40,717 bases of DNA from a virus: the IMG/VR virus record IMGVR_UViG_3300045988_164919, positions 64,001-104,717 of that record. One strand, given 5' to 3'. Of this stretch, positions 2,923 through 39,017 are shown one piece after another. The position numbers and the translations under genes are program-made. Under the pieces are notes generated by a model. It did no database searches. It was not told the DNA's origin and saw only the letters and a program-made list of their open reading frames with translations. Position 1 is the first letter of the stretch; every line of letters begins with the position of its first letter.

Positions 2923-3074
2923 ATTGTCCTTCTCCTTTCATATTTAAAATTATTTTATATTGCTCTATACCTGTTGGACCGAAAATTTCTTAAATGGAAT
3001 TTTAATTTAAGCATTCGGTTTTAATGGTCCAAGCCGGCCCGAGCAATCTATAACCTACTGTCTTTAAAATATAT

Positions 3075-3115: not shown

Positions 3116-3154
3116 ATAGAAAGGATGAAATGCAATGAACGAATTTGAAACGAG

Positions 3155-3728: not shown

Positions 3729-3736
3729 ACATATAA

Positions 3737-3828
3737 TGGCGTTGGGTAAAGGATTTGAACCTTTGGTCCCCGTTTCCAGGGACAACTGCTTAGCAGGCAG
3801 CCGCTATCGACCTCTCAGCCAACCCAAC
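3737..3828 (-). tRNA. tRNA-Ser(GCT), type II, CCA encoded.
   Basis: Acceptor GTTGGGT/ACCCAAC, discriminator G, CCA. Anticodon stem GCTGC/GCAGT with loop CTGCTAA gives anticodon GCU. Long variable arm TGTCCCTGGAAACGGGGAC. T-arm AAAGG-TTCAAAT-CCTTT. Confidence 0.6.
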
Positions 3829-3987
3829 AGATATAGAAAAATAGATAGTAAAAAACAAGCATTGCGCCAAGGCGTAAAAACTCTATCTATTGTATAGTTT
3901 TTGTTCCTTACATATTTAAATATATAAGAAAGGATTACCGGTAGCCTGCCGCCTAATGACAGGATTTCCTATAACCGGACTTTATAT

Positions 3988-4173
3988 TCACACCGTGGCC
4001 TCGGTGGAACGAACTCTTACAAAATGTTCAGCCAGATGTTTCGGCATCCAAATCAAAGTGCCATCATAAAATCTGAAAAGATAAGTCATAAAATTATCTT
4101 TATTATCAGCCTTGCGGCACTTACCCTTACCGTACCTCTTACACCAGACCTTATCTCCTGGATTAAACTTCAT
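3988..4173 (-). CDS. Small basic protein, 61 aa.
   Basis: Track ORF with a strong SD (AAGGAGAAAATA-ATG). Protein is MKFNPGDKVWCKRYGKGKCRKADNKDNFMTYLFRF... Stop is TGA. The + strand ORF 4024..4272 is antisense to it. Confidence 0.55.
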   Translation of the reverse strand: MKFNPGDKVWCKRYGKGKCRKADNKDNFMTYLFRFYDGTLIWMPKHLAEHFVRVRSTEATV

Positions 4174-4374
4174 TATTTTCTCCTTAACAATTTTAACAAA
4201 GCCCTAAAATCATTTGCTGGATTTGAACCAACTCTAAAAAATTTTTGCAGAATTTCTTATTTATCCTATTAAAAGTTGCTGTGTGGGCTTTTCATAAAAC
4301 ATTATTAATTATACTCATTTAATCAATTAGCATTACCCAAGATACGCCCCGTGGAGGCTTGATTAATGTATCTC

Positions 4375-4447
4375 TTGCGGGAGTGGGATTCGAACCCACG
4401 ATAACCAGTTTATGAGGCTGGTGTCTTAACCACTTGACGATCCCGCA
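4375..4447 (-). tRNA. tRNA-Met(CAT) elongator-type, or Ile2-type.
   Basis: Acceptor UGCGGGA/UCCCGCA (7 bp, U1-A72). Anticodon stem CCAG/CUGG with loop region CCUCAUAAA centred on CAU. T-arm GTGGG-TTCGAAT-CCCAC. No CCA encoded. Confidence 0.5.
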
Positions 4448-4505
4448 ATATTAACAAGACAATTTTTATACGTTGCGCTACCAATTACGCTATATCCGAT
4501 CTTCG

Positions 4506-4575
4506 ACCAGACAGTAGGACTCGAACCTACAACACACGGCTCCCAAAGCAAATTTATAATTGCTGTATTGTCTTT
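4506..4575 (-). tRNA. Non-canonical tRNA-like gene. The anticodon loop is 8 nt (UUAUAAAU) and the acceptor is weak.
   Basis: A good T-arm (GTAGG-TTCGAGT-CCTAC) and a 3' acceptor strand TGTCTGG are present. Anticodon stem AGCAA/TTGCT encloses an 8-nt loop. The 5' acceptor (AAAGACA) pairs only 5 of 7. Confidence 0.3.
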
Positions 4576-4581
4576 CATAAA

Positions 4582-4655
4582 TGGTGGAGCCAGAGGGAAT
4601 CGCACCCTCGACTTTGAATTAAATTCAACGTTTTCCTACCATAAACTATGTCCCC
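4582..4655 (-). tRNA. tRNA with a candidate UUA anticodon (ochre/amber-suppressor-like), CCA encoded.
   Basis: GGGGACA-TA-GTTT-ATGGTAGG-AAAC-G-TTGAA/TTCAA arm, with central loop A-U-UUA-A-U if folded as a 4-5 bp stem and 7-nt loop. Variable GTC. T-arm GAGGG-TGCGATT-CCCTC. Acceptor 3' TGGCTCC-A-CCA. The palindromic loop makes the anticodon assignment uncertain. Confidence 0.4.
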
Positions 4656-4660
4656 AAATA

Positions 4661-4725
4661 TGATGGTTATAAAACTTAATCTAATGCAGGCATCAGACTA
4701 ATAGAACGCTCCATCAAGTTCTATG
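4661..4725 (-). repeat. Upstream repeat copy 1 (about 55 nt) 5' of the tRNA at 4582-4655. Candidate tRNA promoter or processing element.
   Basis: ttataaaacttaatctaat...cagactaatagaacgctccatcaagttctat is nearly identical to 4985-5045. It contains the inverted repeat atagaac/gttctat. It ends about 5-10 nt upstream of the tRNA 5' end on the transcribed strand. Confidence 0.5.
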
Positions 4726-4759
4726 CACCAGTTGAGTTGTATGTTTTCCGCGAGTGCGG

Positions 4760-4834
4760 TGGCGGGAAACCAAGGAATTGAACCTTGCTTGGCGGATTAA
4801 CAGTCCGCTGCCTGAACCACTAGGCTAGTCTCCC
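4760..4834 (-). tRNA. tRNA-Asn(GTT), CCA encoded.
   Basis: Acceptor GGGAGAC/GTTTCCC, G, CCA. Anticodon stem GCGGA/TCCGC with loop CTGTTAA gives GUU. T-arm CAAGG-TTCAATT-CCTTG. Confidence 0.6.
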
Positions 4835-4906
4835 ATATTCATAGGGAAGGCTTCTAGAAAACCCGTGCGCTTACCACCCTACGTGTTTGGAATATATCAC
4901 ACTTAA

Positions 4907-4982
4907 TGGTGGAACTTGCGAGAGTCGAACTCGCTACCTCCTGCTTGCAAGGCAGGCGCTCTCCCAGTTGAGCTAAAGTCCC
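4907..4982 (-). tRNA. tRNA-Ala(TGC), CCA encoded.
   Basis: Acceptor GGGACTT/AAGTTCC. Anticodon stem CCTGC/GCAGG with loop CTTGCAA gives UGC. T-arm GCGAG-TTCGACT-CTCGC. Track ORF 4854..5036 is an artefact spanning this tRNA. Confidence 0.6.
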
Positions 4983-4984
4983 AT

Positions 4985-5045
4985 ATTTGATAGTTATAAA
5001 ACTTAATCTAATCAGATTAATAGAACGCTCTATCAAGTTCTATAC
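4985..5045 (-). repeat. Upstream repeat copy 2, 5' of tRNA-Ala.
   Basis: ttataaaacttaatctaatcagattaatagaacgctctatcaagttctat matches the element at 4661-4725 apart from an 8-nt indel and 2-3 substitutions. Confidence 0.5.
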
Positions 5046-5075
5046 TTTAAAATTGTTTACATAGGAAAAAGCATG

Positions 5076-5152
5076 TGGCGATGCTAAGGGGACTCGAACC
5101 CCTGACCTTCGGAGAGACAGTCCGACATTCTAGCCAACTGAACTATAGCACC
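5076..5152 (-). tRNA. tRNA-Asp(GTC), CCA encoded.
   Basis: Acceptor GGTGCTA/TAGCATC. Anticodon stem TCGGA/TCCGA with loop CTGTCTC gives GUC. T-arm CAGGG-GTTCGAGTC-CCCTT. Confidence 0.6.
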
Positions 5153-5155
5153 ATA

Positions 5156-5231
5156 TGGTCGAGCTGCTGGGATTCGAACCCAGGTTTGAAGCGTGAAAGG
5201 CTTCTGAATTAGCCAATTACTCTACAGCCCG
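5156..5231 (-). tRNA. tRNA-Glu(TTC), CCA encoded.
   Basis: Acceptor CGGGCTG/CAGCTCG. Anticodon stem GAAGC/GCTTC with loop CTTTCAC gives UUC. T-arm CCTGG-GTTCGAATC-CCAGC. It is 3 nt from tRNA-Asp. Confidence 0.55.
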
Positions 5232-5326
5232 ATAAATGTCAGCCTGAAAACTACTCACTGACCGTTGGACGCAACTCCAAAGTTATTAGTATGCGTTATA
5301 TAAATTCTCGAAAAGAGACACCCGAT

Positions 5327-5494
5327 TTATTCATCAGAAATCATTTTTTCAGATTTCTCTTTTTCTTTCGCCCTATCATATTCCATACCCTTACCTTTTT
5401 TGGCCGGAACAATAGATCTACGACGGCGGAACAGAAGATACTCGTTCAACTCTGTGCTATCCATTTTAATTGCAGGTTTCTTAGTAGTTGCCAT
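5327..5494 (-). CDS. Small basic protein, 55 aa.
   Basis: Strong SD (AAAGGAGATATTTGAA-ATG). Protein is MATTKKPAIKMDSTELNEYLLFRRRRSIVPAKKGKGMEYDRAKEKEKSEKMISDE with stop TAA. It is below the track length cut-off. The + strand ORF 5291..5578 is antisense. Confidence 0.4.
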   Translation of the reverse strand: MATTKKPAIKMDSTELNEYLLFRRRRSIVPAKKGKGMEYDRAKEKEKSEKMISDE

Positions 5495-5548
5495 TTCAAA
5501 TATCTCCTTTATTATTATATAATATTTTTTTTAAATTTTCAAATTTAT

Positions 5549-5625
5549 TGGTGCAGGATATTGGATTTGAACCAATGACCTCTTGGGTGTAAACCAAACG
5601 CTCTAACCAGCTGAGCTAATCCCGC
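5549..5625 (-). tRNA. tRNA-Val(TAC), CCA encoded.
   Basis: Acceptor GCGGGAT/ATCCTGC. D-arm GCTC-AGCTGGTTA-GAGC. Anticodon stem TTTGG/CCAAG with loop TTTACAC gives UAC. T-arm ATTGG-TTCAAAT-CCAAT. Confidence 0.6.
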
Positions 5626-5947
5626 ATATAGTCTATTTAATTAAGCTGCCAAGAAAAATTAAATAGACTTTTATAAAAATCCTCACTGGGTATGGAGGGC
5701 ATATTAGACTGGCTATTACAGTAGGGCTAATAAGGTAGACTCGCTTGAATTTCACAATATTTGGTTCAACACCAAATTAAATAAAACTATATACATAATT
5801 TCTCATGATATAATCTTATTCCATTACTCTTTAAGGTTCTCTAATGGATGAACTACGAGAATTTTGCTATCTTATACTAATTGCGCGTTTTCATATAAGA
5901 ACCATTTAACGTCAGCGATGCTCTATGAAATTTCTCAAACTTGACCT

Positions 5948-6080
5948 GGTGCGCCAGGCGGGGATCGAACCCGCGTTGCCCTGCTTATGGTGCGGAATAT
6001 TGGATTTGAACCAATACATTAAAATGCTACTTACATCAATCCCACAAAGGCAGGTGCCATACCACTTGGCCACTGGCGCA
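5948..6080 (-). tRNA. Interrupted tRNA. The host is tRNA-Lys(UUU)-like (loop CUUU|UAA) and carries a 58-nt nested mini-tRNA-like insertion in the anticodon loop.
   Basis: Minus strand: GCGCCAG-TG-GCCA-AGTGGTA-TGGC-A-CCTGC-CTTT[insert]TAA-GCAGG-GCAAC-GCGGG-TTCGATC-CCCGC-CTGGCGC-A-CCA. The acceptor, D, anticodon and T stems are all perfect only across the insert. Confidence 0.45.
5989..6046 (-). other. Nested mini-tRNA-like element inside the anticodon loop of the tRNA at 5948-6080.
   Basis: GTGGGAT-TG-...-ATTGG-TTCAAAT-CCAAT-ATTCCGC-A-CCA. It has its own 7-bp acceptor (with G-U pairs), a T-arm and a 3' ACCA. Its T-arm and 3' end are near-identical to those of tRNA-Val at 5549-5625. It has no D or anticodon arms. 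Confidence 0.4.
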
Positions 6081-6430
6081 TATACGCATTTTAGAGGTTC
6101 CGGACCCTCTTGAGCAGCATCACTCAAATAAGATTTTGTCACCTAATTTTAAAAATCTTATTAAAAACAAACCGGTTTTATAGCTAAACCTTTAACTCCC
6201 TTTCCGTTTTTACTTATATGTCAAGAAACAACCAAAGAGTAAGTATAAAAAGACAACATATGAAGAATTTGTTTATAGACAAGCTTCAAACACTCGTCTT
6301 GCGGTCATGTTATTTTATAATCAAGTAAGTAATAACTTCAACCGCGTTTCTTTAACTTAAATAACCTTTAATAATAGTCCTATATTAAATAATTAGTTAT
6401 GGGCGACTATTATTTCCCAGCTTTAATTAA

Positions 6431-6505
6431 TCCTTCTATTGGAATTGAACCAATACCTCCGCCTCTTTCAGGCAGCATGCTTCCATTACACCAAGAAGTA
6501 ATATA
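6431..6505 (-). tRNA. Non-canonical tRNA-like gene. The anticodon arm is aberrant (loop UGAAAGA, no U33).
   Basis: T-arm ATTGG-TTCAATT-CCAAT. Acceptor TACTTCT/AGAAGGA (6 of 7 pairs). The CTGCC/GGCGG stem encloses TGAAAGA. This may be a pseudogene or specialised RNA. Confidence 0.25.
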
Positions 6506-6582
6506 TATGGCTTATTTATATAACGATGGAGCCACCAACCACCGAGCCTTGATTATAGTGAATATAGCTACTACTTCACTGT

Positions 6583-6658
6583 TGGTACCGGTGAAAGGAC
6601 TCGAACCTTCAGATTAATGATCCTAAATCATTCGCCTATGCCATTCGGCTACACCGGC
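6583..6658 (-). tRNA. tRNA with anticodon UAG (Leu-type decoding of CUN) but a class-I (short variable arm) structure. CCA encoded.
   Basis: GCCGGTG-TA-GCCG-AATGGCATA-GGCG-AATGA-TTTAGGA-TCATT-AATCT-GAAGG-TTCGAGT-CCTTT-CACCGGT-A-CCA. All four stems are canonical. Confidence 0.5.
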
Positions 6659-6660
6659 AT

Positions 6661-6725
6661 ATGGTGGAAAGAAGTATTTCACCTTTTATAGCGCGCTTCT
6701 CCCCGTTCCCGCGCTACCCCTCTCC
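6661..6725 (-). ncRNA. GC-rich hairpin element ending in ...CTTTCC-A-CCA, 3 nt upstream of a tRNA. Possible tRNA-like minihelix or processing element.
   Basis: A 7-bp GC stem TAGCGCG/CGCGCTA (loop GGAACGGGGAGAA) sits in an otherwise AT-rich region. The 3' end is ACCA. It has no T-loop consensus. The function is speculative. Confidence 0.2.
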
Positions 6726-6909
6726 CAATTAGCTTGATTACAAGAGGATTTTACTATGAAGTTCATCATAGCTAACTATAAAATTTCTTTATAGCTATAC
6801 ATTAAAACCCGATTTCCCTTTGCCTCAGTTTATTTTTAATTGGTCTATTGCCAACGGCAGGTGACTAATCTGCCTAGTTCAAATCGGAAACCCCATGTAT
6901 AAGACCAAT

Positions 6910-6986
6910 TGGTGGGACAGGGAGGTATCGAGCCTCCATCCTTTGGTTTTTCAGACCAATGCTCCGACCTCGTAAGCTACTGTCCC
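6910..6986 (-). tRNA. tRNA-Phe(GAA), CCA encoded.
   Basis: Acceptor GGGACAG/CTGTCCC. Anticodon stem TTGGT/ACCAA with loop CTGAAAA gives GAA. T-arm GGAGG-CTCGATA-CCTCC. Confidence 0.6.
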
Positions 6987-7015
6987 ATACAAATGAGAAT
7001 TTATTTCTCATTTAT

Positions 7016-7060
7016 TTTGTATATATATTTTATAATATTTTTTTTAATTTTTCAATTAAA
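7016..7060 (-). promoter_or_regulatory. Conserved AT-rich promoter motif (class B: TTGAAA-N17-TAAAAT-ATATATA) upstream of tRNA-Phe.
   Basis: Minus strand reads GTTTAATTGAAAAATTAAAAAAAATATTATAAAATATATATACAA. It is a member of a motif family of more than 15 copies. Confidence 0.5.
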
Positions 7061-7295
7061 CTTCAGGGTGACGAACAAAAAATTCAATAAACAAACCTTC
7101 ATCTTGCTTACTATCACAGAAAAGTTCCAATTCATCACCATGCTGACCAAGTAATGCGCCAAGCGCGATATACTGTGAAAGTGCAGATTTCATATTATAT
7201 CTATCACCTTGTGGACTAACCAGCCATACATTACTATGTGCGCGATTAACTGCTGCGATAAAATCTTCAACCTGCTTAATATTTGTCAACTTCAT
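7056..7295 (-). CDS. Hypothetical protein (79 aa) embedded in the tRNA array.
   Basis: Track ORF with SD AAAGGAATTAAAATA-ATG. Protein is MKLTNIKQVEDFIAAVNRAHSNVWLVSPQGDRYNMKSALSQYIALGALLGQHGDELELFCDSKQDEGLFIEFFVRHPEV. Confidence 0.5.
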   Translation of the reverse strand: MKLTNIKQVEDFIAAVNRAHSNVWLVSPQGDRYNMKSALSQYIALGALLGQHGDELELFCDSKQDEGLFIEFFVRHPEV

Positions 7296-7311
7296 TATTT
7301 TAATTCCTTTC

Positions 7312-7460
7312 TATTGGAATATGGTGCTCCCGTCGGGATTTGAACCCACATCTGGCGATTTGGCCCAAGATGTTAGATTTGAACTTACATCTTTCTTGCG
7401 CATAGACTATTTTGCCATTTAAACTAATCTTGGATAAGTCGCCGGCTCTGACCAATTGAG
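7312..7460 (-). tRNA. Interrupted tRNA. The host is tRNA-Ile(UAU)-like (loop CUUAU|AA) and carries a 73-nt nested tRNA-like insertion in the anticodon loop.
   Basis: GCTCTCG-TA-GCTC-AATTGGTCA-GAGC-C-GGCGA-CTTAT[insert]AA-TCGCC-AGATG-TGGG-TTCAAAT-CCCG-ACGGGAGC-A-CCA. The anticodon stem GGCGA/TCGCC pairs only across the insert. Confidence 0.45.
7351..7423 (-). other. Nested tRNA-like element (73 nt, with its own acceptor and CCA) inside the tRNA at 7312-7460.
   Basis: CCAAGAT-TA-GTTT-AAATGGCA-AAAT-...-GTAAG-TTCAAAT-CTAAC-ATCTTGG-G-CCA. It has a perfect 7-bp acceptor, a D-arm-like stem, a T-arm and G-CCA. There is no convincing anticodon arm. Precise excision of this unit leaves a perfect 7-nt host loop CUUAUAA. 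Confidence 0.4.
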
Positions 7461-7484
7461 CTACGAGAGCATTTATTTGATTTC

Positions 7485-7526
7485 TTATTGATTACTTATA
7501 TATTATATTATATTTTTTTAATTTTT
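7485..7526 (-). promoter_or_regulatory. Conserved promoter motif copy upstream of the interrupted tRNA at 7312-7460.
   Basis: Plus strand cttatatattatattatatttttttaattttttcaaattaag. Minus strand reads CTTAATTTGAAAAAATTAAAAAAATATAATATAATATATAAG. Confidence 0.45.
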
Positions 7527-7561
7527 TCAAATTAAGAAATTTACCCAAGACTTTTTATACT

Positions 7562-7636
7562 TGGCTCCAAGGAAGGAATTCGAATCCTTATTTTCAGAAT
7601 TAACTCTGATGAATTATCCAGTTATTCGACCACGGA
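7562..7636 (-). tRNA. tRNA-like gene with an ambiguous UUAA-centred anticodon loop (6 or 8 nt). CCA encoded.
   Basis: T-arm AAGGA-TTCGAAT-TCCTT. Acceptor TCCGTGG/CCTTGGA (one mismatch), G, CCA. D-arm GAAT/ATTC. Anticodon region TCAGA-GTTAAT-TCTGA. Confidence 0.35.
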
Positions 7637-7664
7637 AAAAAGTTTAAGTTGCTGTAAAAGTCTT

Positions 7665-7712
7665 TTTATATAAATATTATATAATATTTTTTATTAAAAA
7701 TCAAATAATTAT
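7665..7712 (-). promoter_or_regulatory. Conserved promoter motif copy.
   Basis: Plus strand tatataaatattatataatattttttattaaaaatcaaataattatttta, a family member upstream of the tRNA at 7562-7636. Confidence 0.4.
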
Positions 7713-7741
7713 TTTATTCAAACAAGACTTATTTGGTTTGG

Positions 7742-7830
7742 TTCCGCTGGGTTTAACCGCTTCCCTACCTCCGCCATATAATGGTGGGGAGGGCAGGATT
7801 CGAACCTGCGTAGCATTCGCGACGGATTTA
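7742..7830 (-). tRNA. Permuted or fragmented tRNA locus. The T-arm, 3' acceptor and CCA segment lies upstream of an acceptor-5' plus D-arm segment.
   Basis: In minus-strand transcript order: ...TCCGT-CGCGAATGCTACG-CAGG-TTCGAAT-CCTG-CCTCCCC-A-CCA then a TTATAT linker then G-GCGGAGG-TA-GGG-AAGCGGTTAAA-CCC-A-GCGGA-AC... GCGGAGG pairs 6 of 7 with CCTCCCC. GCGGA pairs with the upstream TCCGT. Confidence 0.3.
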
Positions 7831-7869
7831 CTGTCCATTTTTTGCTGTTAAAGTCTTTATTTTCTTTAT

Positions 7870-7912
7870 TTTGTATATATATTATATATTAATTTTTATT
7901 AAATATCAAATT
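7870..7912 (-). promoter_or_regulatory. Conserved promoter motif copy.
   Basis: Plus strand ttgtatatatattatatattaatttttattaaatatcaaattt, immediately upstream of the 7742-7830 tRNA locus. Confidence 0.4.
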
Positions 7913-8600
7913 TATAAATTTTTTCTTGTGAATGATTATCAATAATTTCAATTAATTCATTAAGATAATTTTTATTTTCTGCAACTTTATCAATTTCAAT
8001 AGCTAAATTTAAAGCTGTATAACTAAAAGAGAGCTATTCTTTAATTCCAAGAATTTTTTTTATTTCTTCAGTAAATTGCTATAAATTACTTTTATTCAAA
8101 TAAAAATTTCCCAACAATAAAAATAAATTAGTTTTACCATTAATTAAAAAATAAATCTAATCTAAAATTTTCCAAAATTGTTTATCTATTTTTTTAAAAT
8201 TATTAAATAGCAATTTTAAACAATAATTTATATAACTAATATTTTGTTCAAAATTAAAATTATTAAAATCAGTGTATATTAACTAATTATCAAAATTATA
8301 ATTATTATTAATAATCTACAATAATAATTTATATCTATTAATAAAAATTTTATCTTGAATTTCCATAATTTTATATAATTCTATACCTTTATATTGTTTT
8401 AATATATCCTTATGTAAAATATATTTTTGACATAAATATTCATAAACAGATAAAATCTAAATATCCATATTATATTTTTGAAAATTTATATTCTTATAAT
8501 TACTTATACAAAATAAAATATTATCTTGTATAAGATACATATAATATATCTTACAGTTATATGTATTTTCGATAAATATTTTTAAATTATAATGGTTCAT
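7890..8600 (-). CDS. Asn/Ile/Lys/Tyr-rich hypothetical protein (about 236 aa) with at least 5 in-frame TAG codons. It is the last gene of the radical-SAM module.
   Basis: Hand translation of the minus strand gives continuous protein-like sequence: MNHYNLKIFIENTYNCKIYYMYLIQDNILFCISNYKNINFQKYNMDI-Q-ILSVYEYLCQKYILHKDILKQYKGIELYKIMEIQDKIF...WKILDLDLFLINGKTNLFLLLGNFYLNKSNLQQFTEEIKKILGIKEQLSFSYTALNLAIEIDKVAENKNYLNELIEIIDNHSQEKIYKFDI. It is interrupted only by TAG (for example at 8457-8459) and ends at TAA TAA (7890-7892). The ORF track shows this region as ORF-free. Confidence 0.5.
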
Positions 8601-18119: not shown

Positions 18120-18899
18120 TTAAAAGCGGTCAATGTTATTTACAGCATCATCCATTTTATCATGCCAGAGAAAAATATCCTCCAAAGGGTCAATACAATT
18201 AAAAAAGATAATATTATGCTTATTAATAAATCTATCACAATGATAATGACCAAAGAGCCATACATCATATGTAATCATATTCTTAATTTCTTCAAGCCAT
18301 TCTTCCATAGAGGTATCTACAGTAGATTGATCTACTACTGAAAGAAATTTATCAACTGGCCTAAGAGAATAAGGGCAGGTGTGTGATAGTACAAGATCAA
18401 AATGCTTATTAGTTTGTCGAATAAGCATTTCAGCATCAACTTTTTCTTTATCACTTAATTGTTCATCTTCCCACCAAAGCAGATTGTTTTTAAGACGATA
18501 ATATTTATCAACAGAATAAGCACCACCAATAACTAATGTACGATATTCTCTATCTTCGGTTTTAAGATAATAAATCCCGTAATTATCAAAATATCTAATC
18601 AGAGGGTGAGTCGGCTCATACCATACATTAGCCTGAACATTGCTATCCCAAATACGCTCTATACCTTCAACATTTTCAGGACGTACTTCATGATTGCCAT
18701 GCACGCAATAAATAAAATATCCAAACTGGCTTGCATATTCTTTCTTCATATTATCTCTGAATGCACTACCAGTATTAAAACCGCAGTCTCCAAGGATAAT
18801 AATTGCATAGTCTTTTGGATTTAAAATTCTAAACATTCTTGCATTAAGCCATGTGAAATCACCATGACAATCGCCTCTAATCAGATAGTCCTTGAACAT
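18120..18899 (-). CDS. Calcineurin-like metallophosphoesterase (lambda-phosphatase / 2',3'-cyclic phosphodiesterase superfamily), 259 aa.
   Basis: It has the motifs GDCHGD (GDxHG), ILGDCGFNTG (GDxxDRG-like) and GNHE, in canonical order. Confidence 0.65.
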   Translation of the reverse strand: MFKDYLIRGDCHGDFTWLNARMFRILNPKDYAIIILGDCGFNTGSAFRDNMKKEYASQFGYFIYCVHGNHEVRPENVEGIERIWDSNVQANVWYEPTHPLIRYFDNYGIYYLKTEDREYRTLVIGGAYSVDKYYRLKNNLLWWEDEQLSDKEKVDAEMLIRQTNKHFDLVLSHTCPYSLRPVDKFLSVVDQSTVDTSMEEWLEEIKNMITYDVWLFGHYHCDRFINKHNIIFFNCIDPLEDIFLWHDKMDDAVNNIDRF

Positions 18900-18912: not shown

Positions 18913-19104
18913 TTACGTATTTTCTTCTTTAGCCAGCTCTTCCTTTAATTCTTCTACTTTTTCTATAACTGCACTAAGCACAACAGCTTGAGCCCCAAAA
19001 CTGGTAAAATGTTCAGTCAACCATTTACCAAGATCATCAAAATTGTTTTCAATTTCTTCAATATCTCGACTATCAATTTCAATAGTCATATTATCTTCAG
19101 ACAT
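18913..19104 (-). CDS. Small acidic protein, 63 aa.
   Basis: Track ORF MSEDNMTIEIDSRDIEEIENNFDDLGKWLTEHFTSFGAQAVVLSAVIEKVEELKEELAKEENT. Confidence 0.45.
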   Translation of the reverse strand: MSEDNMTIEIDSRDIEEIENNFDDLGKWLTEHFTSFGAQAVVLSAVIEKVEELKEELAKEENT

Positions 19105-19912
19105 TTAACATTTCCTTTACAATTCTTTTTTTCATAGTAAGATAAACAATCTTATTCATAAAATCTTCAAGTTCTTCATTACCTTCATCCTTGGTCTTAG
19201 AACAATAATCATCAGCTACTCTTGTAATATTATTAATAGCAGTATTTGCTACAATTCGTGCAGTTTCAAGATCATAGTGATAATTTTTTACATCAAGAAG
19301 ATAATCACCCATTGGAGCCTGAAGGCAATCTGCATATTTAACCCCATCAATATAACGTCCAAGATACTGTTCAATACGAAGCAAATGCATAAGCTGCTTA
19401 CTATCATAACCATATGTATCAATCAGATGAGTTTTAGTAGGATATCTATGTTCCATTGCATGATATTTTTCCATAGCAATACCCTTCATTGTCTTAACTG
19501 CCTTGTAAGGATTATAACGTGCAATAGCTTCACGCTCATTAAGCAGTGCCTGCCACTCATTCCAATACACGCTTGATGCCATTTTATAAGGTGTGAAGAT
19601 ACATTCAAGATATGCCATATTCTGTTTCTTCAAACAATCAATGAACAAACGAATATCTTTAAAATCAATGTGTTCATCATTAGGAAGAATCTTGGTATAA
19701 GATACTGGCTTCTTATTTAGTACAATATCTTCAAATGAAGGAAGAACAATAAGTCGGGTATCTACATCAGACGATTGAGTATCAAGACCATAGTTCTGGC
19801 TACCATAAGCCATTAAACTAACCCAATTTTCTCCTTTAACATTAGCTGCTTCTAAATGAGTTTCTACCTTATCCATAACCCATTTATCTGAATGGTAATT
19901 CATAATTATCAC
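19097..19912 (-). CDS. Pol-beta-superfamily (minimal/kanamycin-type) nucleotidyltransferase, 271 aa.
   Basis: It has the motif AYGSQNYGLDTQSSDVDTRLIV (hG[GS]x9-13Dh[DE]h). Confidence 0.55.
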   Translation of the reverse strand: MIIMNYHSDKWVMDKVETHLEAANVKGENWVSLMAYGSQNYGLDTQSSDVDTRLIVLPSFEDIVLNKKPVSYTKILPNDEHIDFKDIRLFIDCLKKQNMAYLECIFTPYKMASSVYWNEWQALLNEREAIARYNPYKAVKTMKGIAMEKYHAMEHRYPTKTHLIDTYGYDSKQLMHLLRIEQYLGRYIDGVKYADCLQAPMGDYLLDVKNYHYDLETARIVANTAINNITRVADDYCSKTKDEGNEELEDFMNKIVYLTMKKRIVKEMLNV

Positions 19913-26398: not shown

Positions 26399-26987
26399 AA
26401 GAAATAGAACCTTCCGGCTGCTCACTCAATTGTGCAGTTTTAGTACAATCATATTTAACAAGTTCAACAGTGCCATCTTTATTAACTACACACTTATAAA
26501 TATGTTTAAGTTCAGCATCATTTTCAACTGTTTGCTTAATAAGTTGGGCACTACTAATTGCCGCCTTACGAATTGCCTCTTGGCTTTCTTCTTTAAGTGC
26601 CTGGCAATCTTCTCTCATAAGATTGCAGAATTCAAGACCCTTAAGCAGTTCTGCTTCCTGTTTTGCTTTAGTCTTTTTATTTGTCCACCATTGAATAAAT
26701 TTACGGTATTCCTTATAAGAACCAAAATACACATAAAATCTGCTTTCGCCAATAATATTTTTTTTATCAATTTGATAAGAAATGCTACTACCATTAATAC
26801 ACCATTTATCAGGCTTAATAGCAGAATATTTCATTACTTCATCGAAGGTAAGTTCAACAGTTTTTTCATGCCATTTAATAGCCTCTTCTTTAAAACCTTG
26901 ATAATTTTCCCAGTCTTTGAAATAGCTAAATACTGTAAAACAGATAATAGCAAATACAACAAAAATACCTAAAACAATCAAAAACAT
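26391..26987 (-). CDS. Membrane-anchored protein, 198 aa.
   Basis: Track ORF with an N-terminal TM helix (MFLIVLGIFVVFAIICFTVFSYF) and a soluble C-terminal domain. Confidence 0.55.
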   Translation of the reverse strand: MFLIVLGIFVVFAIICFTVFSYFKDWENYQGFKEEAIKWHEKTVELTFDEVMKYSAIKPDKWCINGSSISYQIDKKNIIGESRFYVYFGSYKEYRKFIQWWTNKKTKAKQEAELLKGLEFCNLMREDCQALKEESQEAIRKAAISSAQLIKQTVENDAELKHIYKCVVNKDGTVELVKYDCTKTAQLSEQPEGSISCL

Positions 26988-27532
26988 TATTTATTATCCT
27001 CCTTCTCCTGTCGCAAGTCATGGTCTTCGCCATCATAGATTTCACGATATTTAGTAAACAGAGAACCATCATTGTAATAATATCTAATATTATTCCAACC
27101 ATTATAATGGTCAGTCAAATTAGGCCAGTCTACAATACGTGCCTGCCGTTCAAGTTCCTGCTGCGGCACTACTCTATGTCTCTTGGAGTTCCATTCCTTT
27201 GAATTTTCTACGCTGGCGATAATAACCATAAGCTGATAACTATCGAAATGGGGGAAACGGCTTCTGATTTCTTCTCTCTGTCCAAGAGTCAAACAATTAG
27301 TATCAATGATAATATCTGCATTGTCCATTTCTGCACAATGTACAATCTGATATAATGTTTGCCAGACTTCAAACTTATGACGGCGGTTGCATTCATCGCC
27401 ATTAAAGACAGCGTACAATTCATCAGGGTTTACATATCGAATGTGATTCATCTTTGCGAAGGATTTCGCGAATGTAGTCTTTCCATTTGCACTCAAGCCG
27501 CACATCATATATAGAGTCGCCATCAACTTCAT
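26987..27532 (-). CDS. P-loop kinase (polynucleotide kinase / AAA-like NTPase), 181 aa. The true start may be an internal Met.
   Basis: Walker A GLSANGKTTFAKSF, and Walker-B-like IIIDTN. The first roughly 85-110 nt overlap ORF 27423..27851 in another frame. Both frames are open there. Confidence 0.6.
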   Translation of the reverse strand: MKLMATLYMMCGLSANGKTTFAKSFAKMNHIRYVNPDELYAVFNGDECNRRHKFEVWQTLYQIVHCAEMDNADIIIDTNCLTLGQREEIRSRFPHFDSYQLMVIIASVENSKEWNSKRHRVVPQQELERQARIVDWPNLTDHYNGWNNIRYYYNDGSLFTKYREIYDGEDHDLRQEKEDNK

Positions 27533-37667: not shown

Positions 37668-39017
37668 TTACAGTTCCTCCGCGATCGTTTCATCTACTGG
37701 AGTAGTATCAGCAACCGCAATGCCTTCAATGCACTTGAAGGAGAAATTCTTGATCTTATATGCCGTGAAAGAGGGCTTATCAACCAGACGCACAACGACA
37801 CCTTCACGCACATGTCGCGGATCAATCGGTTCAGGACCATCATAATACTGTTCTGCCTTATTCATAATCCATTCGCCTGCGGTGATAGTATCATCATTTT
37901 CAGATGCCGGATGCTCGGGGATATAGCCACGCCATTCAACAGGAACGAATTTTACGCCCATCTGTTCACAACGATACCGAGTATATTCAGGAGAATATTC
38001 CACAGTATAACCATCATGAGTAGTTAGAGTCATACGATAAACATAAAAATCGTTCTTCGGAGCAGTAACACCAGTAGGGTCGCAGCCATAAGAGAAGGTA
38101 GTCATATCGCCATATTGCTTAATGAATGCCTTATCGTTGGTTTTCTTATTGGAAACAGAACCCATAATCGGCACGCCATCATCAGTAAAACCAATAATTT
38201 CAGCATAACAGGTTTCGCCTTCATGCAGCTTGCCTTTAATTGCTTCATGGAAATGCTTACGGAATTCATTAGAACCATAGAAGCCGCCATCATAGCTGAC
38301 TAGCAGAGTGCGGCGAGTGCCGTCAATGTAATCATACTGATAGATAGGTTTGCCATCTTTACGAGTAATCTTATCCCACAGAGTACGCTTATAGCCCTTG
38401 AGAACAGGTAGATAGCCGATTCGTGCAGAAGTACCATGGAGCTTACGAGTAATTTCAATAAGGTCGCCAGGCTTGAATGCATTAAGGTTATAAGCAAGCT
38501 GGGCAGTATCAATATGCTCTTTGAACAGAGGAGCAATCGGATCCTTATGCTTGCGAGTCTTGCTCACATTAGAGTTATTGGTATTATTCTGCTTTCTAGT
38601 ACGCGGAATATACTTATTGCAGATAGGATGACCATTAACTTCGTTAATAATGTCGCCCACCTTTAGATAAGCACTTGCATTATCGTCATAGCAATAATTG
38701 AAACAGCTAATCGGCAGATACAGACCATCGGAACGTTCGCCACGCAGTCTGATAGCAGTAATATTACGCTTATCTACTTCCATATAACCAGTGTCAGCAG
38801 TCCCATCGGGAAGCTTGCGGCACAGATGATTGGCGATGCAAAATTCGAGGGAAAGCTGGAGGTCGCAGGGGAAGTAGACACCAATATCGCCAACCTGCGT
38901 ATCAATGGAAACGCAAGTATCATTGCCGAAGAAAGTTGCGATGTAGAGCTTGTCTGCATTAGGGTGTGCCCGCAGCTCTTTAACTTTTACAATATAACCA
39001 CAGTGATTAATATCCAT
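37668..39017 (-). CDS. ATP-dependent RNA ligase (Rnl2/Rnl5-like nucleotidyltransferase) with an N-terminal tRNA-binding-like OB domain, 449 aa.
   Basis: N-terminus GYIVKVKELRAHPNADKLYIATFFGNDT resembles Myf/EMAP/Trbp111 tRNA-binding OB domains (HPNADKLYV consensus). The ligase motif I is LIEITRKLHGTSARIGY (KxHG lysine-adenylate motif as in T4 Rnl2 EKIHGTN). The + strand ORFs 37812..38027, 38115..38303, 38436..38666 and 38826..39062 are antisense. Confidence 0.65.
   Translation of the reverse strand: MDINHCGYIVKVKELRAHPNADKLYIATFFGNDTCVSIDTQVGDIGVYFPCDLQLSLEFCIANHLCRKLPDGTADTGYMEVDKRNITAIRLRGERSDGLYLPISCFNYCYDDNASAYLKVGDIINEVNGHPICNKYIPRTRKQNNTNNSNVSKTRKHKDPIAPLFKEHIDTAQLAYNLNAFKPGDLIEITRKLHGTSARIGYLPVLKGYKRTLWDKITRKDGKPIYQYDYIDGTRRTLLVSYDGGFYGSNEFRKHFHEAIKGKLHEGETCYAEIIGFTDDGVPIMGSVSNKKTNDKAFIKQYGDMTTFSYGCDPTGVTAPKNDFYVYRMTLTTHDGYTVEYSPEYTRYRCEQMGVKFVPVEWRGYIPEHPASENDDTITAGEWIMNKAEQYYDGPEPIDPRHVREGVVVRLVDKPSFTAYKIKNFSFKCIEGIAVADTTPVDETIAEEL

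What the first reader, a model, noticed from the sequence alone, without database searches (positions are those of the whole stretch)
5948..6080. Two tRNA genes are split in the anticodon loop by nested mini-tRNA-like elements that carry their own acceptor stem, T-arm and CCA
At 5948-6080 the acceptor (GCGCCAG/CTGGCGC), D stem, anticodon stem (CCTGC/GCAGG) and T stem of a tRNA pair perfectly only across a 58-nt insert (5989-6046). The insert is itself a minimal tRNA-like RNA (GTGGGAT...ATTGG-TTCAAAT-CCAAT-ATTCCGC-A-CCA). Its 3' half is almost identical to the 3' half of the neighbouring tRNA-Val. At 7312-7460 a second tRNA (GCTCTCG.../...CGGGAGC-A-CCA) has its anticodon stem GGCGA/TCGCC separated by a 73-nt insert (7351-7423). 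That insert is a complete tRNA-shaped unit (CCAAGAT-TA-GTTT...-GTAAG-TTCAAAT-CTAAC-ATCTTGG-G-CCA). If each insert is excised exactly as a tRNA unit (acceptor 5' end through CCA), the host loops become perfect 7-mers with U33 and A37: CUUUUAA (Lys, UUU) and CUUAUAA (Ile, UAU). At 58-73 nt the inserts are far too small for group I introns. Their tRNA-like shape suggests release by RNase P and RNase Z or CCA-end processing, followed by exon ligation. An RNA ligase with a tRNA-binding domain is encoded in the same window. I know of no described bacterial or phage tRNA intron that is itself a tRNA-like minigene.
Basis: seen in the sequence. Interest (0 to 1): 0.85.

Follow-up and report, generated by a model that had tools for sequence, protein, structure and literature searches.

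The report
tRNA-shaped mobile introns in phage tRNAs
Two transfer-RNA genes of this gut phage are each split inside the anticodon by a small insert that is itself tRNA-shaped; related phages show that these inserts come and go precisely and sometimes carry a homing endonuclease gene, so they look like a little-known, uncharacterised kind of mobile intron that probably exploits the cell's tRNA-trimming enzymes.

Summary
On the minus strand, tRNA-Lys(UUU) (6079->5947) holds a 58-nt insert (6045->5988) and tRNA-Ile(UAU) (7470->7322) holds a 73-nt insert (7433->7361).

Each insert has a 7-bp acceptor stem, a D arm, a T arm and NCCA, but no working anticodon arm. Removing the unit from +1 through CCA restores loops CUUUUAA and CUUAUAA.

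Sister phages carry uninterrupted alleles at the same loci. The insert stems covary.

In about 100 related gut and rumen phage loci, 14 distinct CCA-type inserts were found in Lys, Ile, Glu and Gln tRNAs. Leu, amber-suppressor, Asn and Asp tRNAs hold further cases. All obey the same rule. CCA-less phages carry CCA-less inserts. Longer relatives carry an HNH endonuclease ORF where the anticodon arm would be.

These are therefore mobile tRNA-like introns, not group I and not BHB introns.

Excision by RNase P plus a 3'-end nuclease, followed by ligation, is plausible but untested. The window encodes an RNA ligase, a kinase and a phosphoesterase.

There is a precedent: the "enigmatic" tRNA introns of Lak megaphages (Devoto 2019). 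No mechanism has been published.

The parts
5947..6079 (-). Interrupted tRNA-Lys(UUU) gene (host 1). The 5' exon is 6079->6046 and the 3' exon is 5987->5947, including the encoded CCA.
   Evidence: ARAGORN with introns allowed reports c[5947,6079] with a 58-nt insert. After in-silico excision the anticodon arm CCTGC-CTTTTAA-GCAGG equals that of the uninterrupted Lys(UUU) allele at the same locus in L003. The exons are identical between the window and L001 while the flanks diverge.
5988..6045 (-). Insert 1, a 58-nt tRNA-like unit. It has a 7-bp acceptor stem (GTGGGAT/ATTCCGC), a D arm (ATGT-AAGTA-GCAT), an 8-nt linker in place of the anticodon arm, a T arm (ATTGG-TTCAAAT-CCAAT), discriminator A and CCA. 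It lies between anticodon positions 35 and 36.
   Evidence: The Rfam tRNA model scores it 30.4 bits on its own, with the anticodon arm absent. The covariance model R1 scores it 81.9 bits. In the family alignment A5, 16 pairs are 100% paired and 9 of them have changes on both sides. Its acceptor and T arm are paralogous to tRNA-Val.
7322..7470 (-). Interrupted tRNA-Ile(UAU) gene (host 2). The 5' exon is 7470->7434 and the 3' exon is 7360->7322.
   Evidence: ARAGORN with introns allowed reports c[7322,7470] with a 73-nt insert. The Rfam tRNA model gives 42.7 bits across the insert. An intron-less allele with loop CTTATAA sits at the same locus in L023 9900-9974. The host anticodon stem pairs across the insert in 11/11 sequences, with one compensatory change.
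7361..7433 (-). Insert 2, a 73-nt tRNA-like unit. It has an acceptor stem (CCAAGAT/ATCTTGG), a D arm (GTTT..AAAT), a degenerate 3-bp anticodon-like hairpin, a T arm (GTAAG-TTCAAAT-CTAAC), discriminator G and CCA. It lies between positions 36 and 37.
   Evidence: The Rfam tRNA model scores it 33.1 bits on its own. Its acceptor helix is 100% paired in 11 sequences, and 3 of the 7 pairs are changed on both sides: C-G/U-A, G-C/G-U/A-U and U-A/C-G.
7502..7530 (-). Sigma-70-like promoter, TTGAAA-17 nt-TATAAT, 31 nt upstream of host 2.
   Evidence: The promoter scan gives 11 of 12 consensus matches. This is a consensus match only, not evidence of function.
5549..5625 (-). tRNA-Val(UAC), whose acceptor and T arm are the closest paralogue of insert 1.
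   Evidence: ARAGORN and Rfam call it. It matches insert 1 at 26/29 bases at the 3' end and 7/9 at the 5' end. The three differences that fall in the acceptor stem all keep pairing (and reading of the sequence).
5076..5152 (-). tRNA-Asp(GUC). This is the empty (intron-less) allele of a site that in a sister phage (L024 4207-5159) holds an 876-nt tRNA-like insert with an HNH ORF.
   Evidence: In-silico excision of the L024 insert gives a sequence identical to this gene at 77/77 bases.
37668..39017 (-). RNA ligase (449 aa), the candidate enzyme for sealing the exons.
   Evidence: It matches Pfam RNA_ligase PF09414 at 32.7 bits against a cut-off of 27 and phrog_968 'RNA ligase' at 216.8 bits over the full length. 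TIGR02306 (DRB0094 family) scores only 35.6 bits, below its cut-off. It has 7729 homologues, many on 150-200 kb contigs. Homologues also lie on the IMG/VR contigs of L002, L007, L010, L011 and L012.
26987..27532 (-). P-loop kinase (AAA_33), a possible polynucleotide 5'-kinase for end healing.
   Evidence: It matches PF13671 at 48.5 bits and, weakly, phrog_505 'polynucleotide kinase' at 34.3 bits.
18120..18899 (-). Metallophosphoesterase, a possible 2',3'-phosphate end-healing enzyme.
   Evidence: It matches PF00149 at 46.7 bits and phrog_1649 at 81.7 bits. The role is inferred.
19097..19912 (-). RlaP-type nucleotidyltransferase of the 'RNA repair pathway' Pol-beta family.
   Evidence: It matches PF10127 at 29.7 bits and phrog_388 at 76.9 bits.

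Best explanation
The two loci are working phage tRNA genes, Lys-UUU and Ile-UAU. Each is interrupted within the anticodon by a member of a family of mobile, tRNA-shaped intervening sequences.

At the DNA level, the family spreads among the tRNA arrays of a group of roughly 150-200 kb gut and rumen phages, some of them TAG-recoded. Full-length members carry an HNH homing endonuclease ORF where the anticodon arm would be. The window's 58- and 73-nt copies are ORF-less derivatives.

At the RNA level, I infer that the insert is read by the cell as a tRNA:
1. RNase P cuts at its +1 nucleotide, leaving a 3'-OH on the 5' exon.
2. The nuclease that makes tRNA 3' ends cuts after the insert's CCA. In phages whose tRNA genes lack CCA, it cuts 1-2 nt after the acceptor stem.
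3. The two exons are still held together by the host acceptor, D, T and anticodon stems. They are joined across the nicked anticodon loop by an RNA ligase. The window encodes a ligase together with a kinase and a phosphoesterase that could heal other end chemistries.

Shown here: the architecture, the boundaries, the mobility, the selection on structure, the HNH-bearing relatives and the presence of repair genes.

Inferred: that splicing happens at all, and which enzymes do each step.
For: 1. Exact boundaries.
- In 12 hand-curated CCA-type inserts and in the 14 distinct units of a blind scan, two overlapping sets, the unit '7-bp helix ... helix + N + CCA' leaves exactly 7 loop nucleotides, with U33 and a sensible anticodon.

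2. Empty alleles. In-silico excision matches uninterrupted genes at the same loci:
- L004 against L003: 74/75.
- L033 against L005: 72/77.
- L047 against L062: 71/72.
- L024 against the window's own tRNA-Asp: 77/77.
- L023 holds the intron-less Ile-UAU allele.

3. Selection on the insert's structure.
- In alignment A4, the insert acceptor stem is 100% paired and 3 of 7 pairs are changed on both sides. The host anticodon stem is 100% paired across the insert, with one compensatory change.
- In alignment A5, 16 pairs are 100% paired, 9 are changed on both sides, and 0 of 500 shuffles reach the observed value.

4. The exons are conserved while the insert and the flanks change.

5. The 3' end of the insert follows the phage's own tRNA style.
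- Phages in which most free-standing tRNA genes encode CCA (29-94% per locus, at least 50% in all but one) have NCCA inserts.
- Phages with about 5-29% have CCA-less inserts.

6. Every insert keeps the 12-bp acceptor/T-arm stack, the T loop and the D arm. From established knowledge, that is the part of a tRNA that RNase P and the 3'-end enzymes recognise. The anticodon arm is dispensable, and in HNH-bearing copies it is replaced by the ORF.

7. The window encodes a ligase, an AAA_33 kinase, a metallophosphoesterase and an RlaP nucleotidyltransferase. Ligase homologues also lie on other intron-bearing contigs.

8. A consensus promoter lies 31 nt upstream of host 2.

9. There is no other Lys-UUU or Ile-UAU gene in the window. 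AAA is a frequent codon, at 46 per 1000.
Against: - There are no RNA data, so splicing is inferred from evolution only.
- From my own knowledge, only a few bacterial enzymes are reported to cut exactly 3' of an encoded CCA (Thermotoga RNase Z; E. coli RNase BN on some substrates). The usual route is a downstream cut followed by exonucleolytic trimming, which would not leave a defined 5' end on the 3' exon.
- In CCA-less phages the tail after the acceptor stem is 1 nt in L010 and 2 nt in L047, so it is not uniform.
- One insert ends in TCA rather than CCA (L034 Asn), and one has two U-U mismatches in its acceptor stem (L041).
- The ligase belongs to the Rnl2/DraRnl-like superfamily, which is known for sealing nicks in duplexes, not to the Rnl1 family that repairs anticodon loops.
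- The Lak introns have an extra 5' hairpin before the tRNA-like module, so RNase P alone cannot define their 5' splice site.
- In a cultured Enterococcus phage, an HNH ORF interrupts a tRNA anticodon loop with no RNA structure at all. HNH insertion therefore does not require splicing.
- The MFE fold of insert 2 alone prefers a different pairing.
Confidence: 0.5

Rival explanations
1. The genes are dead. The inserts are selfish DNA, made up of HNH cassettes and their remnants, that landed in tRNA anticodon loops. The interrupted genes are never spliced, and the phage lives on host tRNAs.
For: HNH endonucleases of the same PHROG families are common free-standing residents of phage tRNA arrays. 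In Enterococcus phage PEf771 an HNH ORF sits in a tRNA anticodon loop with no structured RNA around it. Some inserts look decayed, such as the TCA end and the U-U mismatches. There are no RNA data.
Against: - The insert stems covary and remain 100% paired across diverged copies, including ORF-less ones where no protein needs them.
- The host exons stay intact, and their anticodon stem shows compensatory change across the insert.
- Every insert leaves exactly 7 loop nucleotides.
- The 3' ends of the inserts track the phage's tRNA 3'-end style.
- The interrupted genes are the only Lys-UUU and Ile-UAU genes in the window.
Confidence: 0.2
2. The insert is the payload. The host tRNA serves as a transcription and processing scaffold that releases a stable mini-tRNA, made of acceptor, D and T arms plus CCA, with a job of its own. 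That job could be as a decoy for tRNA-targeting defence nucleases or for tRNA-binding enzymes. Rejoining of the exons would be secondary or absent.
For: There is strong selection on the insert's tRNA-like fold and on the NCCA end. Each insert alone passes the Rfam tRNA threshold. The window also carries another tRNA-mimicking RNA, the YrlA-like element at 4455-4580.
Against: - No convincing free-standing copy of the 58-73 nt families turned up in about 1.27 Mb of related loci. The strong hits lie inside tRNA anticodon loops, and the few weak short hits that were inspected were the 3' ends of ORF-bearing inserts or other tRNA-like RNAs.
- HNH-bearing versions of 600-880 nt would not give a mini-tRNA.
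- Empty alleles are common, so the RNA is dispensable.
- This reading does not explain the 7-nt rule.
Confidence: 0.1
3. The inserts are spliced, but by other means: a dedicated phage or host endoribonuclease that recognises the tRNA-like shape and leaves 2',3'-cyclic-phosphate and 5'-OH ends, followed by healing and sealing, or an unrecognised self-cleaving activity.
For: The window encodes a kinase and a phosphoesterase as well as the ligase. These would be unnecessary for RNase P and RNase Z products. No common bacterial enzyme is known to cut right after CCA. The Lak introns need a 5' cut that does not fall at a tRNA +1 position. A second class of small inserts, at position 26/27, exists in the same phages and cannot use RNase P logic.
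Against: - The 5' boundary coincides with +1 of the 7-bp helix in every CCA-type case.
- The 3' boundary tracks the encoded-CCA style of the phage.
- No Rfam ribozyme or intron family matches.
- The insert families differ in T-loop sequence (TTCAAAT against GGCAGNA), so there is no shared catalytic core.
Confidence: 0.18
4. It is an artefact or a chance arrangement: two adjacent or overlapping tRNA fragments, or a mis-assembly.
For: The arrays contain several odd tRNA fragments. In the whole-region scan, Rfam gives for locus 1 a chimeric hit of host 5' half plus insert 3' half at 31.1 bits.
Against: The same nested genes occur on many independent assemblies from different samples. They carry covariation and have precise empty alleles.
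Confidence: 0.02

Closest known systems
Conserved 'enigmatic' tRNA introns of Lak megaphages (Devoto et al. 2019, Nat Microbiol, PMC6784885)
   Same: They are phage tRNA genes interrupted in the anticodon loop by short conserved inserts. Presence/absence polymorphism occurs between related phages. One insert was noted as possibly encoding a tRNA. In their Table S6, the Tyr and Phe introns end in an acceptor/T-arm minihelix.
   Different: The Lak inserts are 79-114 nt and have an extra 5' hairpin and linker before the tRNA-like module. Their tRNA genes lack CCA. No rule for the boundaries, no covariation, no HNH-bearing forms and no mechanism were reported. Here the insert is exactly one tRNA unit, from +1 to CCA.
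Group I introns in bacterial, organellar and phage tRNA anticodon loops (own knowledge; for example tRNA-Leu(UAA))
   Same: They sit in the anticodon loop. They are mobile elements with optional homing-endonuclease ORFs and ORF-less derivatives. Empty alleles occur in relatives.
   Different: The inserts here have no group I core. They are 47-77 nt without the ORF, against roughly 200 nt or more for group I. They lie inside the anticodon (34/35 to 36/37). They are tRNA-shaped and give no Rfam intron hit.
Archaeal and eukaryal protein-spliced (bulge-helix-bulge) tRNA introns
   Same: They are small introns removed, on this model, by protein or RNP endonucleases plus an RNA ligase. The exons are held together by the tRNA body.
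   Different: There is no bulge-helix-bulge here: the two junctions are separated by a 7-bp helix plus NCCA. The position is not 37/38. These are bacterial phages, whose hosts lack the splicing endonuclease (own knowledge).
Phage T4 anticodon-loop repair (PrrC nuclease against Pnkp and Rnl1; own knowledge)
   Same: A phage-encoded kinase/phosphatase and RNA ligase reseal a break in the anticodon loop of tRNA-Lys. The window has analogous genes.
   Different: That is repair of damage, not removal of an insert. The window's ligase belongs to the PF09414 (Rnl2/DraRnl-like) family, not to the Rnl1 family.
tRNA-like structures used as RNase P / RNase Z cleavage signals (mitochondrial 'tRNA punctuation', MALAT1 mascRNA, plant t-elements; own knowledge)
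   Same: A tRNA-shaped element inside a longer transcript defines precise cuts at its own 5' and 3' ends.
   Different: In those cases the flanks are not re-ligated, and none lies inside another tRNA.
Free-standing HNH homing endonucleases in phage tRNA gene clusters (T5 F-Tfl enzymes, T4 SegB; annotated hegA in Enterococcus phage Bop)
   Same: They belong to the same HNH PHROG families and live in tRNA arrays.
   Different: They lie between tRNA genes. They are not inside an anticodon loop wrapped in a tRNA-like RNA.

Membership tests
Group I intron | A conserved P1-P9 catalytic core, detectable by covariance model, typically 200 nt or more | tested here: not met
   The inserts are 58 and 73 nt. 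Rfam gives no intron family at E<=1 over 3000-9000 or at E<=10 on the inserts alone. None appears at gathering score in six related loci that include the ORF-bearing inserts.
Bulge-helix-bulge (archaeal/eukaryal) tRNA intron | Two 3-nt bulges separated by a 4-bp helix at the splice sites, with canonical position 37/38 | tested here: not met
   Reading the sequence, the 5' junction abuts a 7-bp helix and the 3' junction lies 4 nt after it. The positions are 35/36 and 36/37.
Bulge-helix-bulge (archaeal/eukaryal) tRNA intron | A splicing endonuclease (EndA/Sen) present in the host | not testable with these tools
   The host is unknown. The sigma-70-type promoters point to a bacterial host, and bacteria lack EndA (own knowledge).
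tRNA (Rfam RF00005), applied to the inserts themselves | Acceptor stem, D arm and T arm with a TψC-type loop | tested here: met
   The inserts score 33.1 and 30.4 bits against a gathering score of 29. There is covariation in all three helices.
tRNA (Rfam RF00005), applied to the inserts themselves | An anticodon arm with a 5-bp stem and a 7-nt loop | tested here: not met
   In the CM alignments the arm is replaced by 1 nt in insert 1 and by 11 nt in insert 2. The inserts are therefore tRNA-like, not tRNAs.
Lak-type phage tRNA introns (Devoto 2019) | A short conserved insert in the anticodon loop of a phage tRNA gene, present or absent between close relatives, with a tRNA-like module | tested here: met
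   See for this family, and for the Lak description and sequences.
Homing-endonuclease-driven mobile intron | An endonuclease ORF inside the intervening sequence | tested here: not met
   The window's two copies have no ORF. Relatives at the same or equivalent sites do: L004, L022 and L034 (Lys), L025, L032 and L037 (Glu) and L024 (Asp). Their ORFs match HNH families (phrog_10822 at 151.9 and 134.5 bits; Pfam HNH_2 at 25.1 bits). The family meets this feature; these two copies are ORF-less derivatives.
Homing-endonuclease-driven mobile intron | Filled and empty alleles of the same site, and the same insert in different host alleles | tested here: met
   The insert-2 family sits in two different Ile bodies. 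The insert-1 family and the HNH insert sit in different Lys bodies.
Homing-endonuclease-driven mobile intron | Removal at the RNA level (splicing) | not testable with these tools
   No transcript data are available.
Bacterial RNase P substrate | A 12-bp acceptor/T-arm stack, a T loop, a single-stranded 5' leader and a 3' NCCA | tested here: met
   The sequence and covariation show this. The nucleotide at -1 is U at both window loci. Actual cleavage was not tested.
DraRnl (DRB0094, Rnl5) RNA ligase family, applied to ORF 37668-39017 | An N-terminal OB-like module plus an adenylyltransferase domain, scoring above the family cut-off | tested here: inconclusive
   TIGR02306 gives 35.6 bits against a cut-off of 151, covering residues 10-203. 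PF09414 passes its cut-off. phrog_968 matches over the full length. There is no PDB sequence hit, and the AlphaFold model is unusable.

The most novel reading that the evidence does not exclude
These are members of a third mechanistic class of tRNA intron, alongside self-splicing group I introns and BHB introns cut by a splicing endonuclease. The intron is a tRNA mimic. It is excised by the universal tRNA end-processing enzymes, RNase P at its 5' end and the CCA/3'-end nuclease at its 3' end, and it is removed cleanly because a phage RNA-repair ligase seals the resulting nick in the anticodon loop. It spreads at the DNA level with an HNH homing endonuclease housed where its anticodon arm would be. 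In effect it is a selfish element that parasitises both tRNA maturation and the phage's anti-defence tRNA repair pathway.
Probability: 0.45. Interest if true: 0.92.

Novelty: new variant of a known kind. Interest (0 to 1): 0.82.

Why it matters
If these inserts are spliced as proposed, bacteria and their phages have a protein/RNP-dependent tRNA splicing pathway. That has so far been thought confined to archaea and eukaryotes. It would be built from RNase P, a 3'-end nuclease and an RNA-repair ligase.

It would explain the "enigmatic" tRNA introns seen in megaphages. It would give a physiological substrate for the RNA ligases that are enriched in gut phages. It would also show a new way for a homing-endonuclease element to be tolerated, by mimicking a tRNA instead of carrying a ribozyme.

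In practice, standard tRNA finders miss these genes. In the related loci, 75 of 1053 ARAGORN calls carried inserts of up to 300 nt, though not all of these are of this class. Phage tRNA repertoires, including suppressor tRNAs that drive stop-codon recoding, are therefore under-counted.

One interrupted gene, in L015, is an amber suppressor. Splicing could thus gate the switch of genetic code.

The system is directly testable with a few purified enzymes.

Tried and rejected
- Close relatives in cultured or GenBank phages: blastn found only short tRNA hits.
- Searching IMG/VR for an uninterrupted copy of host 1 with the exact body sequence gave 0 hits. The empty alleles have other bodies and were found through synteny instead.
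- The core pattern of insert 2 gave one chance hit in a coding sequence, L019.
- ARAGORN with introns up to 3000 nt mostly joins halves of neighbouring tRNAs. Only candidates whose exon ends pair and that match empty alleles were kept.
- A first permissive blind scan for nested units was swamped by chance stems in AT-rich flanks. It was repeated with stricter rules.
- Alternative boundary choices were considered: ARAGORN's Met-CAU and Trp-CCA readings, and Gln-UUG for host 1 on the basis of its D arm. They were rejected because the empty alleles have CTTTTAA and CTTATAA.
- I considered an origin by RNA-level mis-ligation of a mature tRNA followed by reverse transcription. It is disfavoured because CCA-less phages carry CCA-less inserts and because HNH-bearing forms exist.
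- The HNH homologues in cultured phages and in a 595-kb uncultured phage are free-standing, not nested.
- A ligase search with a single sequence found one IMG/VR contig.
- The structure prediction of the ligase failed (pLDDT 37), so no fold search was run.
- A PDB sequence search with the ligase found nothing.
- Literature searches found no mechanistic description.
Full report
**What is there**

The window carries a minus-strand tRNA array at about 3645-7830. Default ARAGORN tRNAs and skips both loci of the finding.

I read the minus strand directly.

Locus 1:
- The host tRNA runs 6079->5947.
- Its sequence is GCGCCAG-TG-GCCA-AGTGGTA-TGGC-A-CCTGC-CTTT | insert | TAA-GCAGG-GCAAC-GCGGG-TTCGATC-CCCGC-CTGGCGC-A-CCA.
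- The insert runs 6045->5988 (58 nt).

Locus 2:
- The host tRNA runs 7470->7322.
- Its sequence is GCTCTCG-TA-GCTC-AATTGGTCA-GAGC-C-GGCGA-CTTAT | insert | AA-TCGCC-...-CGGGAGC-A-CCA.
- The insert runs 7433->7361 (73 nt).

Several tools agree on the nested reading:
- ARAGORN with introns allowed finds both genes, with inserts of exactly 58 and 73 nt. It places the boundaries differently and so calls Met-CAU and Trp-CCA.
- The Rfam tRNA model spans locus 2 across its insert at 42.7 bits.
- Each insert alone passes the tRNA gathering score (33.1 and 30.4 bits against 29). The acceptor, D and T arms align, and the anticodon arm is replaced by 11 nt and 1 nt respectively.
- MFE folds keep the host acceptor, anticodon and T stems across the inserts.
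- Insert 1's acceptor and T arm are close to those of the neighbouring tRNA-Val: 26/29 bases at the 3' end and 7/9 at the 5' end. The three differences that fall in the acceptor stem all preserve pairing.

**Relatives**

GenBank phages have no close relative. I used a 79-aa ORF that lies inside the array (7056-7295) as an anchor. It fetched 15 IMG/VR loci and 80 metagenome loci. They come from human-gut and rumen assemblies, on contigs of mostly 140-200 kb where long.

Several of these phages read TAG as a sense codon. TAG replaces Gln in the anchor ORF of L003 and L007. In the window, several ORFs lengthen if TAG is read through.

ARAGORN with introns of up to 300 nt reports inserts in 75 of 1053 tRNA calls. 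These make up 55 distinct sequences.

**Boundaries and host identity**

Sister phages hold uninterrupted genes at the same loci, with the same flanks.
- For locus 1, L003 has Lys-UUU with the same anticodon arm, CCTGC-CTTTTAA-GCAGG. L005 has another Lys-UUU body.
- For locus 2, L023 9900-9974 is an uninterrupted Ile-UAU (GACAA-CTTATAA-TTGTC) in the body that carries the insert in L003.

Removing inserts in silico gives near-identity to real empty alleles:

| Filled allele | Empty allele | Identity |
|---|---|---|
| L004 | L003 | 74/75 |
| L022 | L003 | 73/75 |
| L033 | L005 | 72/77 |
| L047 | L062 | 71/72 |
| L024 (876-nt insert) | window tRNA-Asp 5076-5152 | 77/77 |

**A general rule**

I curated 12 CCA-type inserts by hand. 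In all of them the unit '7-bp helix ... helix + N + CCA' is flanked by exactly 7 loop nucleotides, with U33.

The hosts and positions are:
- Lys-UUU at 35/36 and at 34/35
- Ile-UAU at 36/37 and at 34/35
- Glu-UUC at 36/37
- Gln-UUG at 35/36
- Leu-UAA at 34/35
- an amber suppressor (CUA) at 35/36
- Asn-GUU and Asp-GUC in further cases

A blind scan of about 1.27 Mb recovered 14 distinct nested units. It required 7 of 7 acceptor pairs and an insert of at most 100 nt, so it missed the Leu and suppressor cases. All 14 units have a flank sum of 7. Hits with other sums are register artefacts of the same units or unrelated sequences.

The 3' end of the insert follows the phage's own tRNA style:
- Where most free-standing tRNA genes encode CCA (29-94% per locus, at least 50% in all but one), the inserts end in NCCA.
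- Where few do (about 5-29%), the inserts lack CCA.
- In those phages the insert ends 1 nt (L010) or 2 nt (L047) after the acceptor stem. The L047 boundary is fixed by the empty allele in L062.

**Selection**

Between the window and L001 the exons are identical while the flanks diverge. Insert 2 has four changes, two of which form a compensatory pair.

Across 11 distinct full-length sequences of the insert-2 family, which occupy two different Ile bodies:
- The insert's acceptor helix is 100% paired.
- Three of its seven pairs are changed on both sides.
- The host anticodon stem is 100% paired across the insert, with one compensatory change.

Across seven members of the 58-65 nt family, found in Lys, Glu and Asn hosts:
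- All 16 pairs of the acceptor, D and T helices are paired in every sequence.
- Nine pairs are changed on both sides.
- 0 of 500 shuffles reach this value, and slid controls fall to 34-47% paired.

The inserts are thus structured RNAs under selection: tRNAs without an anticodon arm.

**Mobility**

A covariance model of the family also hit isolated 3' modules, each a T arm plus acceptor 3' strand plus ACCA. These proved to be the ends of long inserts.
- L034 12794-13604 and L004/L022 (735 nt) lie in Lys-UUU at the same CTTT|TAA site.
- L025 (863 nt) and L032/L037 (about 604 nt) lie in Glu-UUC.
- L024 (876 nt) lies in Asp-GUC.

Each long insert starts with an acceptor 5' strand and a D arm. For example, GATTTAA-TA-GCAT-AAGTA-ATGC has the same AAGTA D loop as insert 1. 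An ORF then occupies the place of the anticodon arm. The insert ends with a T arm, the acceptor 3' strand and ACCA.

With TAG read as Gln, the ORFs are HNH endonucleases. They match phrog_10822 at 151.9 and 134.5 bits and Pfam HNH_2 at 25.1 bits, and they carry the motif DHINGxNxDD..NLRWVCPNCN.

L041 carries a 69-nt ORF-less derivative of the Lys element.

The pattern is that of a homing-endonuclease element:
- There are filled and empty sites.
- The same insert occurs in different host alleles.
- There are ORF-bearing and ORF-less forms.

Homologous HNH genes in cultured phages lie between tRNA genes. In Enterococcus phage PEf771, one sits in a tRNA anticodon loop without any tRNA-like wrapping.

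**How it most likely works**

Shown: the architecture, the boundaries, the selection and the mobility.

Inferred: the RNA is processed as a tRNA.

The inserts conserve what RNase P and the tRNA 3'-end enzymes recognise, namely the 12-bp acceptor/T stack, the T loop, the D arm and NCCA (established knowledge). They dispense with the anticodon arm.

A cut at +1 and a cut after CCA would leave a nick in a 7-nt anticodon loop of an otherwise intact tRNA. Phage RNA-repair ligases seal that kind of substrate; the T4 Pnkp/Rnl1 paradigm is an example (own knowledge).

The window encodes the following:
- an RNA ligase (PF09414; phrog_968; a distant DraRnl-type match below its cut-off)
- an AAA_33 kinase
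- a metallophosphoesterase
- an RlaP nucleotidyltransferase

Ligase homologues are very common on similar contigs. They occur on the IMG/VR contigs of L002, L007, L010, L011 and L012.

A consensus promoter lies 31 nt upstream of host 2.

The weak points are these:
- There are no RNA data.
- No common bacterial nuclease is known to cut exactly after CCA.
- The tails in CCA-less phages vary.
- The ligase is not of the Rnl1 type.
- The Lak introns have an extra 5' hairpin.

I put about 0.9 on 'real interrupted genes with mobile tRNA-like inserts', about 0.65 on 'spliced to working tRNAs', and about 0.45-0.5 on the RNase P / 3'-nuclease / ligase route.

**Comparison with what is known**

The inserts are not group I introns: they are too small, they lack the core, and Rfam gives no hit. 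They are not BHB introns: the geometry and the position are wrong.

The nearest precedent is the report of conserved 'enigmatic' introns in Lak megaphage tRNAs, one of which 'itself may encode a tRNA' (PMC6784885). Their Table S6 sequences do end in acceptor/T-arm minihelices.

I found no paper giving boundaries, covariation, HNH-bearing forms or a mechanism. The paper on theta ribozymes notes that DRB0094-type ligases are enriched in gut phages rich in tRNA-linked ribozymes, but it does not mention introns.

**Verdict**

The thing is a new variant of a reported but unexplained kind, and it may prove to be a distinct mechanistic class of intron.

Noticed in passing
window 4455-4580 (-): A roughly 125-nt RNA folds as a tRNA mimic with a closed acceptor end. 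It has a T arm (GTAGG-TTCGAGT-CCTAC), a 9-bp stem capped by GAA, a D arm (GCGT-AATTGGTA-GCGC) and a closing stem (GACAAT/ATTGTC). Rfam gives a weak YrlA (Y-RNA-like) hit of 29 bits against a gathering score of 69. It is about 73% identical over 120 nt to unannotated DNA in Enterococcus Schiekvirus phages.
   Followed up: partly
window 4585-4655 (-): A tRNA scoring 48.5 bits in Rfam is not called by default ARAGORN. Its anticodon region reads either as a 5-nt loop TTTAA or as a 4-bp stem with loop ATTTAAT. The second reading gives anticodon UUA, a possible ochre suppressor.
   Followed up: no
window 7562-7636 (-) and 7785-7830 (-): The first is an odd tRNA-like gene with a 6-nt anticodon loop, conserved in L023. 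The second is a lone piece consisting of a T arm, an acceptor 3' strand and CCA.
   Followed up: no
L046, L047, L060-L065, L072 (for example L047 148-268); L013, L075, L077, L084 (for example L013 5362-5613); L040, L042, L044: A second class of small inserts (33-52 nt in ARAGORN's calls) occurs in several of these tRNAs. They lie between the D arm and an intact anticodon arm (position 26/27) and share motifs such as GTCTTGAAAAAG...GCGGCAAG or AACAGCAAGTTT. Hosts include tRNAs with anticodon UUA. No Rfam family matches them.
   Followed up: partly
L080 6772-7080; L064 and L072 6413-7297: L080 has a 224-nt insert in tRNA-Leu(UAA). L064 and L072 have an ORF-bearing insert of about 812 nt in tRNA-Pro(UGG), without a tRNA-like 3' module. 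Neither gets an Rfam group I hit at gathering score.
   Followed up: partly
Enterococcus phage PEf771, MN241318.1, about 70.65-71.5 kb (L104): In a cultured phage, an annotated HNH endonuclease ORF lies inside the anticodon loop of a tRNA-Lys(CUU)-like gene (ATCTCCT..CCTGA-CTCTT | ORF | AA-TCAGG..AGGGGAT). There is no tRNA-like RNA around it, and the tRNA is not annotated.
   Followed up: partly
window 9209-10552, 7899-8873, 23535-24458, 1036-2253, 29802-30959 (-): A subset of ORFs has in-frame TAG codons (1-7 each) and lengthens if TAG is read as sense. They include a radical-SAM protein and a free-standing HNH/homing endonuclease at 23535-24458. Most other ORFs have none, so recoding is partial. 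No tRNA(CUA) lies in the window.
   Followed up: partly
window 18120-18899, 19097-19912, 26987-27532, 37668-39017 (-): The window carries a dispersed RNA-repair gene set: a metallophosphoesterase, an RlaP nucleotidyltransferase, an AAA_33 kinase and an RNA ligase.
   Followed up: partly
same locus in the window, L003, L005, L023, L033, L046 and L062: At one syntenic position, sister phages carry quite different bodies for the same isoacceptor: two or three Lys-UUU bodies, two Ile-UAU bodies and two Gln-UUG bodies. tRNA alleles are therefore swapped frequently, independently of the inserts.
   Followed up: partly
window 3645-3730 (-): tRNA-Trp(CCA) has a long extra arm and is 86 nt long. Its best Rfam match is tRNA-Sec at 38.8 bits, below that family's gathering score.
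   Followed up: no
window 5514-5542, 7502-7530, 7881-7909 (-): Near-consensus promoters of the form TTGAAA/TTGATA-17 nt-TATAAT recur between tRNA genes and small ORFs of the array.
   Followed up: no
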